DNA of 64,000 bases from sequence record PZ445430.1; one strand, 5' to 3'. Under the pieces are notes generated by a model. That model worked only from the letters and a program-made list of their open reading frames with translations, had not been told where the DNA came from and did no database searches. Shown piece after piece: positions 6,938-39,840 of the stretch. The first letter of the stretch is position 1, and the number at the start of each line of letters is the position of its first letter. The position numbers were made by a program, and so were the translations under genes. This DNA comes from a phage.

Positions 6938-7423
6938 ATGGATCACAGAACAAGTATTGCACAAGCAGTGGTTGACCGAATCGCCACACAAATGGATGGT
7001 TCACAACCTGACGAGTATTTCAATAACCTTTATGGAAACGTTTCTCGTCAAACTTATAAATTTGAGGAAATCCGAGAATTTCCTTATGTGGCAGTCCATA
7101 TCGGAACTGAAACTGGGCAGTATCTTCCTTCAGGCCAACAGTGGATGTTTTTAGAACTTCCAATCTTCGTGTATGACAAAGAGAAAACAGATATTCAAGA
7201 GCAACTTGAAAAACTCGTAGCTGACATAAAAACCGTCATTGACACAGGTGGAAATTTAGAATATACTGTTAGTAAACCTAATGGATCGACCTTCTCATGT
7301 GAGGCAACTGATATGAGCATTACCTCAGTAGCTACAGATGAAGGTCTACTGGCCCCATATGGTTTAGCGGAAATAAATGTAACAGTGAGGTATCAGCCAC
7401 CTCGTAGGGCACTTCGCAGATAA
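6938..7423 (+). CDS. tail terminator protein (p142-like)
   Basis: 161-aa ORF immediately upstream of the tail tube gene. Confidence 0.5.
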   Translation: MDHRTSIAQAVVDRIATQMDGSQPDEYFNNLYGNVSRQTYKFEEIREFPYVAVHIGTETGQYLPSGQQWMFLELPIFVYDKEKTDIQEQLEKLVADIKTVIDTGGNLEYTVSKPNGSTFSCEATDMSITSVATDEGLLAPYGLAEINVTVRYQPPRRALRR

Positions 7424-36730: not shown

Positions 36731-37498
36731 TTATTCAGCAGCCGCAGCTTTTGCATCCAGTTTAGCACGCTTAGCAGCACCATCATAGTCCTTAGCAACC
36801 AGACCACGACGAGACAGCATAGATTTAACACCGCGCTCAGACTTACCAGTTTTCTCAGCGATCTCAGCAACAGCCATGTTAGCCAGATCCAGACCTTCTA
36901 ACAGATCTTCACGGGTTTTAGCACTTGAAGTTTCCTGTACCGGCATAGCAGCGATACGACCTTCGCGAAGCAGGCTCAGAGCTTTACCACGGATCTGCTT
37001 AATATTGCGACCGAAGTGAGCAGCGATAGCTTCAATAGTAGCACCAGCAACAACCTGATTAACGAAATCAGTTTCTTCATCAGGAGTGAAGGAACGAACA
37101 GCGGCAGCTTTTTCAGTTGGCTTAACAGAAGCAGTCATTTCTAGACTCAGGATCTTACCCTGTACCTGCTTAGCACCGAACTGACCACCAGCTACAGCAG
37201 CAGCGATTTCAGCGTAAGTATACTGACCAGCATGAGCGTTCAGGAAATCAACCAGTTCAGCTTCCTGCTCAGGAGTCCACGGGGATTTCTGTACTTCGTT
37301 TGCTTTCTGTACTTCGAAACCTTCTTTACGCAGCTTAGAGCCAACAGAGCGAGCGGTAACGTCTTTACCGGTCTCGGTAGCCAGTTCAGCAGCGATAGCA
37401 GCTACTTGTTCTTGAGAGATTACAGTAACACCCAGAGCAGTGGCTTTTGCTTTCAGAGACTCGGTTACACCTTCTACGTTCCAGTTCAGTTTAGACAT
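36731..37498 (-). CDS. D5-like DNA-binding protein
   Basis: 255 aa, Ala/Lys-rich with three internally repeated motifs; strongly biased codon usage; position between helicase and ligase genes. Confidence 0.55.
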   Translation of the reverse strand: MSKLNWNVEGVTESLKAKATALGVTVISQEQVAAIAAELATETGKDVTARSVGSKLRKEGFEVQKANEVQKSPWTPEQEAELVDFLNAHAGQYTYAEIAAAVAGGQFGAKQVQGKILSLEMTASVKPTEKAAAVRSFTPDEETDFVNQVVAGATIEAIAAHFGRNIKQIRGKALSLLREGRIAAMPVQETSSAKTREDLLEGLDLANMAVAEIAEKTGKSERGVKSMLSRRGLVAKDYDGAAKRAKLDAKAAAAE

Positions 37499-38273
37499 TA
37501 TTATTTTTCTCCAATAGTTCTTTAATCGACAGGATTTCTATCCCATTCGTTTCGGCTTTCTTATAAGATGAGGAAGAACGTTTTGATTCATCCTCACAGA
37601 TTAGGTATTTGACGTCTTTGGTAACGGACTTCTTAACCGTATATCCTAGACTCTCTAAATAGTTTGTTGCATCCGTTCGATTTGCAAAATCTTGCAAAGA
37701 TCCGGTAATACAGACCGTGATTCCATTTGGCTGAGCAACTAAATCATCTGTAATGATGATATCAGCTTTAGCACCTCGAATACCAGTTGAGAATTTCCAC
37801 GGTAATTCAATAACATCCTTGCCTTGCGGGGAATTTAGCCAGGTTTTGTAATTTTCTCCAGCCTTGCCGTCAGCCTTCACATCGTGGAAGCTAGTGCAAT
37901 TTTGGGACAGTTTCTTTGCTGCAACCTCTCCAATAAGAGGAATTCCTAAAGAACCGAGAACTGAACCAAAGTCAATGTCTCCGCGAACCTTAGTATTTAA
38001 CTCGCTAATCAACTTAGCGGCAACCTTGCTACCCACAGCTCCGACCAAATCTTCTTCGGTCAGGTAAAACAGTTCTGAGATTTTAGTCAGCTCCAGCTTC
38101 TCAATAGTTTTCGGGCCAAAGCCCTTTAACTTCATTTTTGTGCAGAAGTTCTCGATTAACTTACTTGATTGCGCTGGACAGTTGGACTTATTCCTACAGA
38201 ATAATTGCCCGTTGACAAGATCTAGCTTAGAACCACAAGAGGGACATTGTGTTGGAATTTCGATTTTCATCAA
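37491..38273 (-). CDS. NAD-dependent DNA ligase, C-terminal part (Zn finger, HhH, BRCT)
   Basis: N-terminal CPSCGSKL...C zinc-finger-like motif, HhH-like and BRCT-like regions; own promoter and RBS. Confidence 0.75.
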   Translation of the reverse strand: MMKIEIPTQCPSCGSKLDLVNGQLFCRNKSNCPAQSSKLIENFCTKMKLKGFGPKTIEKLELTKISELFYLTEEDLVGAVGSKVAAKLISELNTKVRGDIDFGSVLGSLGIPLIGEVAAKKLSQNCTSFHDVKADGKAGENYKTWLNSPQGKDVIELPWKFSTGIRGAKADIIITDDLVAQPNGITVCITGSLQDFANRTDATNYLESLGYTVKKSVTKDVKYLICEDESKRSSSSYKKAETNGIEILSIKELLEKNNNV

Positions 38274-38294
38274 ATTTCTTCCTTATCAATTTAT

Positions 38295-38340
38295 ATAAAT
38301 ATTATAGCAAGTATTTAAGCATTTAGCAACTACAATTTTA
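38295..38340 (-). promoter_or_regulatory. promoter in ligase spacer driving the C-terminal ligase ORF
   Basis: on - strand TTGCTA, 17-nt spacer, TATAAT, A/T-rich upstream. Confidence 0.65.
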
Positions 38341-38472
38341 ACTAACTTTGCTTACCCTCGCCATAACTTTCTATCCCTCAACTGAATGATAATAGTATAT
38401 ACCTAAGCGGCGAAAATGTCAATAACCACTTTATAATTCCGACATGGTAAACGGGTAGCAAAGGGTTACGAA

Positions 38473-39444
38473 TTAGTCGTATACTCGCTCTACTATACAA
38501 GGGATTACACCACCAGCACGAATCACTCGAATCTGGCTACCGATCTCTAAATCGAGAGCGTTAATATAGTCAACGTTATTAAGAGTTGCTTTAACGATTG
38601 TGGCATCATCAATAATCACCGGTTCGAAATAACCAACTGGAGTTACTTTACCAGAAGCCCCAACTTGCCATTCAACTTTAACAAGAGTGGTAATTTCGCC
38701 TTCTTCATCCTCTTTAATAGCAAATGCACCACGAGGAAATTTATTAGTCCAACCTTCACGGAAGAATTTATTGTTGTCATTAATACGAACAACTTTACCG
38801 TCCGTCGGAATCCATTTAAAGAAGGAACGAACATTAACAACTGTCAAGAAGTTCTCATTCTCTAGCCAAAGCATATCTTTTAAATAGGCTTCTGTAATAC
38901 CGACTGTTTCCGCTGAACACTGGATACCATATGCAACGAAGATTAAACCACCTTCACCAATACGTTGGATGAAATCATCGCTGTCTTTCAGGTTAATAGC
39001 ACCCGAAGCGTAGTTACGTTTGTTCTCTACTTCTTTAGTAATTAGAACTTCACCAGTGATTTGAGTTGGTACTTTTTGGGAAATAGTTTTGGGGATGTTC
39101 AGCATTTTAACATTATGCGTTACATCATTCCCTAGAATACCGTTACCACGAGTTAACGCTTGAACAAACTCACCATTAATATATAATAGAGAAATCGCAC
39201 AACCATCTAACTTATCAGTTTCAACCTGACCAAGTGGGTTGAATGGAGCTTTATCACCACGATCGTAATAGACTTTCTGCAAAGAATACATACGATACAA
39301 ATGAGGGATATCACCTTTCGGTCCGATTTCTTCCTCTAGTGGGAATCTTTTAATCAGACGATCATATTCTTCGTCAGAGATTAAAGACATACCTTGATAA
39401 TATGCTTCTTGACAGCGTTTAATAAATTCTTTTACATTAGTCAT
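38473..39444 (-). CDS. NAD-dependent DNA ligase, N-terminal adenylation/OB part
   Basis: KLDG adenylation motif (VETDKLDGCAISLLY) and LigA-like N-terminus. Confidence 0.8.
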   Translation of the reverse strand: MTNVKEFIKRCQEAYYQGMSLISDEEYDRLIKRFPLEEEIGPKGDIPHLYRMYSLQKVYYDRGDKAPFNPLGQVETDKLDGCAISLLYINGEFVQALTRGNGILGNDVTHNVKMLNIPKTISQKVPTQITGEVLITKEVENKRNYASGAINLKDSDDFIQRIGEGGLIFVAYGIQCSAETVGITEAYLKDMLWLENENFLTVVNVRSFFKWIPTDGKVVRINDNNKFFREGWTNKFPRGAFAIKEDEEGEITTLVKVEWQVGASGKVTPVGYFEPVIIDDATIVKATLNNVDYINALDLEIGSQIRVIRAGGVIPCIVERVYD

Positions 39445-39469
39445 TTATTTATATCTCTCATCAATTTAT

Positions 39470-39512
39470 ATAAATATTGTATAACAAAACTGAGTCGAAA
39501 GCAAGTACATTT
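39470..39512 (-). promoter_or_regulatory. promoter upstream of ligase N-terminal ORF
   Basis: on - strand TTGCTT, 17-nt spacer, TACAAT. Confidence 0.55.
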
Positions 39513-39531
39513 ATAAAGAAAAAGCCAAGAA

Positions 39532-39840
39532 CTAGGCATTCTTGGCTTTGAGTTCTTCAGCTCGTTTCTGTACTTCATGCAATACCTCGGATTCACTGAG
39601 GATTTGCGTAAAAGCGTAAAATAGCTGTGATGTAGTTTCTAGGGTATAAGGAAAAGAGAAGCCGGATTTCGTTGGAAACCACTCTCCAGTAATATCTTGG
39701 AGCCAGTAACGAATTCCCATGTATAGATTCCCACGAAATTCAGATACGGTTAGTCTTACTTGTTCCCCCTCCTTCTCCCAAAGCATGATGGACTGGTCGT
39801 CAACGTGTCCTTCATAGTTTTGATTTACCTGATCGCTCAT
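39532..39840 (-). CDS. PC4-like ssDNA-binding protein
   Basis: 102 aa; RLTVSEFRGNLYMGIRYW...GEWFPTKSGFSFP resembles PC4/YdbC-type fold. Confidence 0.5.
   Translation of the reverse strand: MSDQVNQNYEGHVDDQSIMLWEKEGEQVRLTVSEFRGNLYMGIRYWLQDITGEWFPTKSGFSFPYTLETTSQLFYAFTQILSESEVLHEVQKRAEELKAKNA

What the first reader, a model, noticed from the sequence alone, without database searches (positions are those of the whole stretch)
37491..39444. NAD-dependent DNA ligase encoded as two ORFs separated by a promoter-bearing 199-bp spacer
The adenylation/OB part (38473-39444, KLDG motif) and the Zn-finger/HhH/BRCT part (37491-38273) are separate ORFs. The spacer carries a canonical T5-type promoter and RBS for the downstream half, so the halves can be expressed independently. 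I recall T5 ligase being annotated as two subunits, but whether they form one enzyme or the halves act separately is unclear to me. The spacer is too short and unstructured for an obvious group I intron.
Basis: partly seen in the sequence, partly recalled or inferred. Interest (0 to 1): 0.5.

Follow-up and report, generated by a model that had tools for sequence, protein, structure and literature searches.

The report
Split two-subunit phage DNA ligase, known

Summary
The window is 100% identical to Escherichia phage SuperGirl, a T5-like phage. ligA (38473-39444, minus strand) encodes domain Ia, the adenylation domain and the OB domain. ligB (37491-38270, minus strand) encodes the Zn finger, HhH and BRCT domains. 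About 200 nt of non-coding DNA separates them.

This is not a sequencing error, intron, intein or translational bypass.
- The break falls at the same linker position in nine Demerecviridae phages compared, from at least seven lineages.
- Both halves are under strong purifying selection (dN/dS 0.04-0.08).
- In other genera whole genes sit between the halves: NADAR-domain, DprA-like, or a GIY-YIG homing endonuclease.
- A T5-syntenic metagenomic contig carries a colinear fused 557-aa version.

The spacer holds two tandem promoters, which the T5 GenBank record names P-K 28b and P-K 28a. The ligB-proximal promoter is conserved in all nine phages.

PDB 9HU3 is titled [quoted passage not shown] and was released in January 2026. 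Its two chains match the window's proteins at E = 7e-105 and 1e-79. [quoted passage not shown] Verdict: already known, low interest.

The parts
38473..39444 (-). [quoted passage not shown]
   Evidence: ORF. Pfam DNA_ligase_aden and DNA_ligase_OB. Matches PDB 9hu3_A at E = 7e-105. K78, R99, E132, D215 and K243 align with E. coli K115, R136, E173, D285 and K314; R220 replaces K290. dN/dS against T5 is 0.043.
37491..38270 (-). ligB: NAD-dependent DNA ligase subunit B (259 aa; Cys4 Zn finger, HhH and BRCT domains)
   Evidence: ORF. Pfam BRCT. Matches PDB 9hu3_B at E = 1.1e-79, and residues 3-122 align with E. coli LigA 402-529. The AlphaFold model has pLDDT 83.7 and its best PDB match is 9hu3_B at E = 4e-26. 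dN/dS against T5 is 0.076.
38271..38472 (-). Non-coding spacer between the ligA stop and the ligB ATG (202 nt)
   Evidence: Sequence. No Rfam family. RNA fold z = -0.74. The last 152 nt are 100% identical to T5, while fourfold-degenerate sites of the flanking genes are 69% and 87% identical.
38368..38442 (-). Orthologue of T5 early promoter P-K 28b (-35 TTGACA 38422..38417; -10 TATACT 38399..38394)
   Evidence: Promoter scan, 11 of 12 matches. T5 annotates the colinear, identical stretch as 'promoter P-K 28b'. The 25-nt initial transcribed region is 92-96% identical in phages KpnB01 and Eos, where fourfold-degenerate sites of the flanking ligase genes are only 31-45% identical.
38275..38349 (-). 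Orthologue of T5 early promoter P-K 28a (-35 TTGCTA 38329..38324; extended -10 TGcTATAAT 38309..38301; ATT discriminator)
   Evidence: Promoter scan. T5 annotation. TTGC-N16-TGnTATAAT-A immediately upstream of ligB is kept in all nine Demerecviridae phages compared, including Vibrio phages. Klimuk et al. 2020 report ATATT in the discriminator of all known T5 early promoters (PMC7472727).
38278..38284 (-). Ribosome-binding site of ligB (AAGGAAG, 7 nt before the ATG)
   Evidence: Read directly from the sequence.
39476..39504 (-). Promoter of ligA (TTGCTT-17-TACAAT), followed by the leader ATATTTATATAAATTGAT that also precedes ligB
   Evidence: Sequence. T5 annotates a promoter at the colinear position. 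The shared leader TATAAATTGAT is found at 38285-38295 and 39460-39470 and is aligned.
36731..37498 (-). D5 DNA-binding protein gene; its start overlaps the ligB stop (ATGTCTAA), so it lies in the same transcription unit as ligB, downstream of P-K 28a/b
   Evidence: ORF, sequence, annotation. A D5 homologue (43% identity, E = 1e-57) also follows the fused ligase in contig L013.
38338..38364 (-). 8-codon mini-ORF (MARVSKVS) between the two promoters; probably not a gene
   Evidence: Sequence. Its ATG is not kept in phages KpnB01 or Eos.

Best explanation
The locus encodes a heterodimeric NAD+-dependent DNA ligase that arose by fission of a compact (about 560 aa) phage LigA-type gene, exactly in the short linker between the OB domain and the Zn finger.

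Inferred from homology: LigA (domain Ia, NTase, OB) carries the chemistry, namely self-adenylylation from NAD+ on K78, AMP transfer to the 5' phosphate, and sealing. LigB (Zn finger, HhH, BRCT) supplies the DNA-binding half. The two associate non-covalently around a nick to reconstitute the usual LigA clamp.

Shown by sequence: the roughly 200-nt gap is an expression module, not an intervening sequence. It holds two tandem sigma-70 early promoters (orthologues of T5 P-K 28b and P-K 28a) and an RBS for ligB. ligB overlaps the start of the D5 DNA-binding protein gene.

Inferred: ligA is transcribed from its own upstream promoter. With no convincing terminator after ligA in this phage, ligB-D5 probably receives read-through transcription plus the output of two additional strong promoters. 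The DNA-binding half and D5 would then be made independently of, and probably in excess over, the catalytic half.

Shown by comparison: the gap is also a permissive site where relatives have acquired cargo genes or a homing endonuclease.
For: Identity and annotation
- The window is 100% identical to phage SuperGirl, and subunits A and B are annotated across T5-like phages.

Domain content and catalytic residues
- Pfam domains and alignments to E. coli and Thermus LigA structures.
- LigA residue 320 aligns with E. coli residue 390 and LigB residue 3 with E. coli residue 402, so nothing is missing at the break.

Heterodimer
- PDB 9HU3/9I5I hold both chains. The title is 'PR1 phage heterodimeric DNA ligase in complex with 21-mer nicked DNA containing phage nick sequence'.
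- Chain B is 100% identical to Providencia phage PR1, a Demerecviridae phage.

A true, old fission
- The break point is the same in nine phages from at least seven lineages.
- dN/dS is 0.043 for ligA and 0.076 for ligB.
- Every one of the best 120 LigB homologues, down to 49% identity, is a standalone protein of 190-263 aa (117 of them 247-263 aa).
- Of the best 150 cluster representatives, 100 are of standalone size and 96 of those have CPxC within the first 30 residues.

Fused relatives
- Ten compact proteins of 555-578 aa are colinear with LigA, a 4-10-aa linker, then LigB.
- One of them, P0225, lies in a T5-syntenic contig: PC4-like gene, ligase, D5, DnaB, primase.

Promoters
-, and PMC7472727.

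Genes inserted at the gap in relatives
- NADAR-domain gene in Proteus phage Stubb; DprA-like genes in Vibrio phages KIT04 and JSF12; GIY-YIG gene in Salmonella phage SP3.

Biochemical precedent
- A LigN truncation containing only Ia, NTase and OB adenylylates itself but cannot ligate (PMC1684257).
Against: - No biochemical or structural data exist for the SuperGirl or T5 proteins themselves. The heterodimer is shown only for PR1, whose chains are 57% (A) and 56% (B) identical to the window's proteins. I found no paper describing 9HU3, so only the entry's title, chains and release date are known to me.
- Promoter activity in vivo and the LigA:LigB ratio are inferred from sequence and the T5 record's annotation, not measured here.
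- Read-through from ligA into ligB is inferred only from the lack of a convincing terminator in T5 and SuperGirl. Phages Eos and PR1 do have a hairpin followed by a T-run after ligA.
- The direction of evolution, fission versus fusion, is not resolved. The neighbour-joining tree is star-like, and three of the fused forms nest among split ones.
Confidence: 0.9

Rival explanations
1. The two halves work separately. LigA alone is the ligase, or a minimal one. LigB is an independent DNA-binding or nick-binding factor co-expressed with D5, for example for replication, or for handling the site-specific nicks of T5-type genomes.
For: - ligB has its own two promoters and overlaps D5, not ligA.
- Relatives place unrelated genes, and in some a terminator-like hairpin, between ligA and ligB. 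Expression is therefore uncoupled.
Against: - The PR1 orthologues were deposited as a heterodimer on nicked DNA.
- Ia-NTase-OB truncations of other NAD+ ligases adenylylate but do not ligate (PMC1684257).
- ligA and ligB are always found together and in the same order in the phages examined.
- An additional role for free LigB is not excluded.
Confidence: 0.07
2. The halves are rejoined into one polypeptide or one mRNA, by a group I intron, translational bypassing or frameshifting, or a split intein.
For: Split phage genes are sometimes rejoined. The known example is the 50-nt translational bypass in T4 gene 60 (bioRxiv 10.1101/2022.08.31.505936, listed). The gap also lies at a domain boundary.
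Against: - No Rfam intron family matches, and the spacer RNA fold has z = -0.74.
- ligB has its own RBS and ATG.
- LigA and LigB together are colinear with fused relatives, with no extra intein-like residues.
- The gap holds 443-1015 nt including whole genes in other genera.
- The PR1 enzyme is deposited as two separate chains.
Confidence: 0.01
3. The stop codon is a sequencing error, or the gene is a decaying pseudogene.
For: None beyond the bare presence of a stop codon inside a normally single gene.
Against: - The same arrangement appears in 430 independent phage records and across several genera.
- dN/dS is 0.04-0.08 in both halves.
- The promoters in the gap are conserved.
Confidence: 0.005

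Closest known systems
Bacteriophage T5 ligA/ligB (T5.116/T5.117), described as the 'split NAD+-dependent DNA ligase' of the T5 genome paper (Wang et al. 2005, as cited in PMC1684257)
   Same: - Orthologous genes: 96% amino-acid identity in LigA and 96.5% in LigB.
- The same 202-nt spacer; its last 152 nt are identical.
- The same promoters, P-K 28b and P-K 28a, and the same downstream D5 gene.
   Different: Only synonymous divergence and small ORFs upstream of ligA differ. Nothing functional differs as far as I can see.
Providencia phage PR1 heterodimeric DNA ligase (PDB 9HU3, 9I5I; released January 2026)
   Same: - Two chains homologous over their full length to LigA (E = 7e-105) and LigB (E = 1.1e-79).
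- The same break point.
- A gap of about 190 nt carrying an annotated promoter.
   Different: - 57% (A) and 56% (B) amino-acid identity to the window's proteins.
- PR1 has an annotated terminator directly after ligA, whereas the equivalent hairpin is degenerate in T5 and SuperGirl.
- The upstream promoter is much less conserved in PR1.
Bacterial LigA (E. coli LigA, PDB 2OWO)
   Same: - The same domain order: Ia, NTase, OB, Zn finger, HhH, BRCT.
- The same catalytic motifs.
- The LigB model superposes on the C-terminal part of LigA.
   Different: - E. coli LigA is a single 671-aa chain; the phage enzyme is two chains of 323 and 259 aa.
- The NTase domain is about 70 residues shorter.
- Arginine replaces K290.
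'Genes in pieces': the nrdA gene of Aeromonas phage Aeh1, split by the mobE homing endonuclease gene (PMC3045599)
   Same: An essential DNA-metabolism gene of a lytic phage is broken into two ORFs whose products reassemble. A free-standing homing endonuclease can sit at the break: a GIY-YIG ORF lies immediately after ligA in Salmonella phage SP3.
   Different: The window has no endonuclease gene in the gap, only promoters. The split predates the family radiation. That an endonuclease caused it is conjecture.

Membership tests
NAD+-dependent DNA ligase (LigA family) | Nucleotidyltransferase motif I, KxDG, with the adenylylated lysine, plus motifs III, IV and V | tested here: met
   K78-L-D-G aligns with E. 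coli K115. R99, E132, D215 and K243 align with R136, E173, D285 and K314. R220 replaces K290. Pfam DNA_ligase_aden 1.8e-23.
NAD+-dependent DNA ligase (LigA family) | N-terminal domain Ia, which confers NAD+ specificity (the YH...D..YD residues in E. coli) | tested here: met
   AYYQGMSLISDEEYDRL aligns with the domain Ia segment of Thermus, Deinococcus and E. coli LigA, although these local alignments are weak. The segment is strongly conserved in PR1 chain A. The cofactor itself was not tested.
NAD+-dependent DNA ligase (LigA family) | OB domain following the NTase domain | tested here: met
   Pfam DNA_ligase_OB 1.2e-21, residues 252-321.
NAD+-dependent DNA ligase (LigA family) | Cys4 Zn finger, HhH and BRCT domains C-terminal to the OB domain | tested here: met
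   C9, C12, C25 and C31 are invariant in 24 homologues. LigB 3-122 aligns with E. coli 402-529. Pfam BRCT 1.1e-8; HHH_2 scores 21.6 bits, below its cut-off of 27. The model matches 2owo_A.
NAD+-dependent DNA ligase (LigA family) | All domains on one polypeptide | tested here: not met
   A stop codon follows the OB domain, then a 202-nt gap with promoters, then a separate RBS and ATG. This is the feature that makes it the split variant.
T5-type heterodimeric (split) NAD+ ligase | Two ORFs broken in the linker between the OB domain and the Zn finger, in the order ligA then ligB, inside the replication gene cluster | tested here: met
   LigA ends ...GGVIPCIVERVYD and LigB starts MKIEIPTQCPSCGS. 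The break point is the same in nine phages. Synteny is shown.
T5-type heterodimeric (split) NAD+ ligase | Full-length homology to both chains of the solved PR1 enzyme | tested here: met
   E = 7e-105 over residues 4-323 and E = 1.1e-79 over residues 1-255.
T5-type heterodimeric (split) NAD+ ligase | Physical A-B complex that seals nicks | not testable with these tools
   Known only from the PDB entry title for PR1.
Group I intron, intein or translational bypass element | Structured RNA or an intein-like insert that restores one product | tested here: not met
   No Rfam family matches. RNA fold z = -0.74. There are no extra residues relative to the fused homologues.
Gene split by a resident homing endonuclease ('genes in pieces') | A homing endonuclease gene between the two pieces | tested here: not met
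   The window's gap contains only an 8-codon ORF that is not conserved. A GIY-YIG ORF is present at this position only in phages SP3 and vB_Sen_SG_WM_RUS_R2.

The most novel reading that the evidence does not exclude
The fission persists because it is useful for regulation. It lets the phage place strong early promoters inside the former ligase gene, so that the DNA-binding half LigB, together with D5, is made in excess of the catalytic half. Free LigB would then have a role of its own, for example marking or protecting the site-specific nicks of T5-type genomes until LigA is recruited. The promoter ahead of ligB, conserved across all nine phages compared, and the '21-mer ... phage nick sequence' substrate of PDB 9HU3 are compatible with this idea but do not show it.
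Probability: 0.12. Interest if true: 0.5.

Novelty: already known. Interest (0 to 1): 0.15.

Why it matters
It matters little as a discovery. The split ligase has been annotated since the 2005 T5 genome, was discussed as such in 2006, and a homologous heterodimer bound to nicked DNA is now in the PDB.

What the comparison adds is modest:
- The break point is fixed across all nine Demerecviridae phages compared.
- An early promoter ahead of ligB and D5 is as conserved as the proteins.
- The gap is a landing site for cargo genes and for a homing endonuclease.
- Colinear fused orthologues exist in T5-syntenic metagenomic phages.

Together these make the locus a clean natural example of gene fission at a domain linker. 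It could be used to ask why some enzymes tolerate being split.

Tried and rejected
- Rfam scan of 37300-39700 at E <= 1: only a chance antisense match inside ligA.
- Folding the spacer RNA: no more stable than shuffled sequence. The intron idea was dropped.
- Terminator search after ligA: nothing convincing in SuperGirl or T5. Eos and PR1 have a hairpin followed by a T-run, but the consensus scan did not call the Eos one.
- The mini-ORF MARVSKVS: its start codon is not conserved in KpnB01 or Eos. Dropped as a gene.
- My first promoter pattern had the wrong spacing; I corrected it.
- Literature searches for a paper on 9HU3/9I5I or on a heterodimeric T5-like ligase found nothing.
- A neighbour-joining tree of 124 LigB-type sequences, meant to decide between fission and fusion, was star-like and unresolved.
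- The size differences among relatives seen are mostly insertions upstream of ligA, not in the spacer. The exception is the GIY-YIG gene in SP3.
Full report
**1. Observation**

The window region 37300-39650 is 100% identical to Escherichia phage SuperGirl (Bas29; Epseptimavirus, Demerecviridae). It matches 459 phage records, and 430 of them cover at least 80% of the region. The minus strand carries two ORFs.
- The first runs 39444..38473 and encodes 323 aa.
- The second runs from 38273 (TTG) or 38270 (ATG) to 37491 and encodes 260 or 259 aa.

Pfam finds the NAD-ligase adenylation and OB domains in the first ORF. It finds BRCT in the second, with HhH just below the cut-off. The ATG at 38270 lies 7 nt after AAGGAAG and is the start used in GenBank. 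The gap is therefore 202 nt, or 199 nt counted to the TTG.

**2. What the proteins are**

LigA aligns with E. coli LigA as follows:
- K78 (KLDG) with K115, R99 with R136, E132 with E173, D215 with D285, and K243 with K314.
- K290 is replaced by R220.
- Residue 320 aligns with E. coli residue 390.
- The N-terminal AYYQG...SDEEYDRL segment is the domain Ia signature.

LigB residues 3-122 align with E. coli 402-529. Its four cysteines are invariant in 24 homologues. The cut therefore falls precisely in the linker between the OB domain and the Zn finger, and no residues are missing.

An AlphaFold model of LigB has a mean pLDDT of 83.7. Its best PDB match is 9hu3_B at E = 4e-26; 2owo_A and other bacterial LigA structures follow.

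**3. It is a real, old, selected gene fission**
- LigB homologues occur in 1009 phage records.
- I inspected representatives of Tequintavirus, Epseptimavirus, an unclassified Markadamsvirinae phage (Eos), Sugarlandvirus, Priunavirus, Novosibvirus and the Vibrio Ermolyevavirinae. In every one LigA ends at ...GG(V/I)IPKIVxxV.. and LigB begins M(K)IxIPxxCPxCGS.
- dN/dS between SuperGirl and T5 is 0.043 for ligA and 0.076 for ligB.
- Every one of the best 120 homologues, down to 49% identity, is a standalone protein of 190-263 aa, and 117 of them are 247-263 aa.
- Of the best 150 representatives of 50%-identity clusters, 100 are of standalone size, and 96 of those have CPxC within the first 30 residues.

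In other genera the gap is 443-1015 nt long and contains genes:
- an NADAR-domain protein in Proteus phage Stubb (Pfam 1.6e-31);
- DprA-like proteins (phrog_768) in Vibrio phages KIT04 and JSF12;
- small ORFs of unknown function in Vibrio phage D123.

In Salmonella phage SP3, a Tequintavirus, a GIY-YIG ORF starts on top of the ligA stop codon and replaces the first part of the spacer. It occurs in only two phages, and GenBank mislabels it 'ligase subunit A'.

These facts rule out a sequencing error, a pseudogene, an intron, an intein or a translational bypass. The negative Rfam scan and the unstructured spacer RNA (z = -0.74) agree with this.

**4. Fused relatives**

Ten compact proteins of 555-578 aa are colinear with the two halves.
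- The N-terminal part is 34-43% identical to LigA over its full length.
- A 4-10-aa linker follows.
- The C-terminal part is 30-36% identical to LigB.

One of them, P0225, lies in a metagenomic contig (L013) with T5 gene order: a PC4-like gene (45% identity to the window's 39532-39840 ORF), the ligase, a D5 homologue (43% identity, E = 1e-57), DnaB and primase. Split and fused forms are therefore orthologous at the same locus.

A neighbour-joining tree places most compact fused forms basal to the split radiation, but it is star-like and three fused forms nest inside. I treat fission as the likelier direction, not as proven.

**5. The spacer**

The T5 GenBank record labels the colinear sequence 'promoter P-K 28b' and 'promoter P-K 28a'. 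In the window these correspond to:
- TTGACA-17-TATACT at 38422..38394;
- TTGCTA-17-TATAAT, with an extended -10 TG and the ATT discriminator, at 38329..38301.

Klimuk et al. 2020 report ATATT in the discriminator of all known T5 early promoters (PMC7472727).

Conservation of the spacer is high.
- The last 152 nt are identical between SuperGirl and T5, although fourfold-degenerate sites in ligA are only 69% identical.
- In phages KpnB01 and Eos the fourfold-degenerate sites are saturated (31-45% identity). Yet the first 25 transcribed nucleotides of P-K 28b are 92-96% identical and the region downstream of P-K 28a is 87% identical.
- A TTGC-N16-TGnTATAAT-A promoter directly upstream of ligB is present in all nine phages, whatever else the gap contains.
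- The motif is a phage-wide promoter type: 7 copies in the window against 0.19 expected by chance.

The ligA promoter (39504..39476) is followed by the same leader, TATAAATTGAT, that precedes ligB. There is no convincing terminator after ligA in SuperGirl or T5, whereas Eos and PR1 have one. The ligB stop overlaps the D5 start (ATGTCTAA), so P-K 28a/b also drive D5.

**6. One enzyme or two?**

PDB entries 9HU3 and 9I5I contain a 339-aa chain 'DNA ligase (NAD(+))' and a 248-aa chain 'DNA ligase subunit B'. Chain B is 100% identical to the ligB product of Providencia phage PR1, a Demerecviridae phage of the genus Priunavirus. The entry title is 'PR1 phage heterodimeric DNA ligase in complex with 21-mer nicked DNA containing phage nick sequence', released 2026-01-14.

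[quoted passage not shown] 2005. They showed that an Ia-NTase-OB fragment of LigN adenylylates itself but does not ligate (PMC1684257). Helicase work on T5 also lists ligA and ligB as ligase subunits (PMC3632103).

By homology, the SuperGirl proteins most likely form the same heterodimer. This is an inference and was not measured.

**7. Mechanism, with the status of each step**
- Shown by sequence: two genes, the domain split, catalytic residues, promoters and RBS, and the overlap with D5.
- Shown for a homologue: a heterodimer on nicked DNA.
- Inferred: NAD+ use; LigA performing the chemistry with LigB providing the DNA clamp; read-through from ligA plus two extra promoters giving more LigB and D5 than LigA; and the linker as a permissive site that first accepted an insertion (a promoter, cargo gene or mobile element) and has since been maintained.

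**8. Comparison with known systems, and verdict**

The locus is the orthologue of T5 ligA/ligB and a member of the T5-type heterodimeric ligase group. It is a split variant of bacterial LigA. It resembles the 'genes in pieces' nrdA of phage Aeh1 (PMC3045599) in outcome, but it has no resident endonuclease.

Nothing here is new beyond comparative detail. Novelty: already known. Interest: low. The only open, mildly interesting question is why the split and the internal promoter are so stably kept, and whether free LigB has a role of its own.

Noticed in passing
L003 1850-2491 (Salmonella phage SP3, MG387042.1 64022-64663): A 213-aa GIY-YIG homing-endonuclease-like ORF (Pfam 1.1e-5) starts on top of the ligA stop codon (ATGAATAG) and replaces the first ~45 nt of the spacer. 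[quoted passage not shown] It is found in only two phages. The ligA 3' end next to it has diverged from T5, which might be a co-conversion or target-immunity tract.
   Followed up: partly
L006 1192-1809 (Proteus phage Stubb); L007 1190-1747 (Vibrio phage KIT04); L008 1331-1903 (Vibrio phage JSF12): Other Demerecviridae genera carry whole genes between ligA and ligB. Stubb has an NADAR-domain protein (Pfam 1.6e-31); from my own knowledge NADAR domains can reverse ADP-ribosylation, so it may be a counter-defence gene. The Vibrio phages have DprA-like proteins (phrog_768).
   Followed up: partly
L013 6001-7674 (JGI metagenome 3300051786, contig Ga0502775_0003803): A T5-syntenic metagenomic phage contig encodes a fused 557-aa ligase. 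Inside that gene, about 50 nt 3' of the position equivalent to the split, lies a strong promoter-like site: TTGACA-17-TG-CATAAT at 6992-7020, 11 of 12 matches. It could be chance, or an internal promoter for the D5 homologue that predates the fission.
   Followed up: no
window 39441-39461 (minus strand): GenBank annotates a 6-codon ORF (MRDINK, bas29_0039) whose stop overlaps the ligA ATG (ATGA). A similar 8-codon ORF (MARVSKVS, 38364..38338) follows promoter P-K 28b. Neither looks conserved as a peptide. They may be leader mini-ORFs or annotation noise.
   Followed up: partly
window 39445-39531 and the colinear region in relatives (for example L002 705-1172): The region just upstream of ligA varies among T5-like phages. 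Many relatives carry an extra 190-460 bp there, with one or two small ORFs of unknown function that SuperGirl and T5 lack.
   Followed up: no
window 38369-38393 (minus strand): The first 25 transcribed nucleotides after promoter P-K 28b (ATTATCATTCAGTTGAGGGATAGAA) are 92-96% identical in phages KpnB01 and Eos. That is better conserved than the promoter's own -35 to -10 stretch (72-79% identity), and fourfold-degenerate sites of the flanking genes are saturated. The constraint seems stronger than a promoter alone would need, and its cause is unknown.
   Followed up: partly
window 39521-39549 (minus strand): A 12-bp terminator-like hairpin followed by a T-run lies at the end of the PC4-like gene (39532-39840), just upstream of the ligA promoter. 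This suggests ligA starts a new transcription unit.
   Followed up: no
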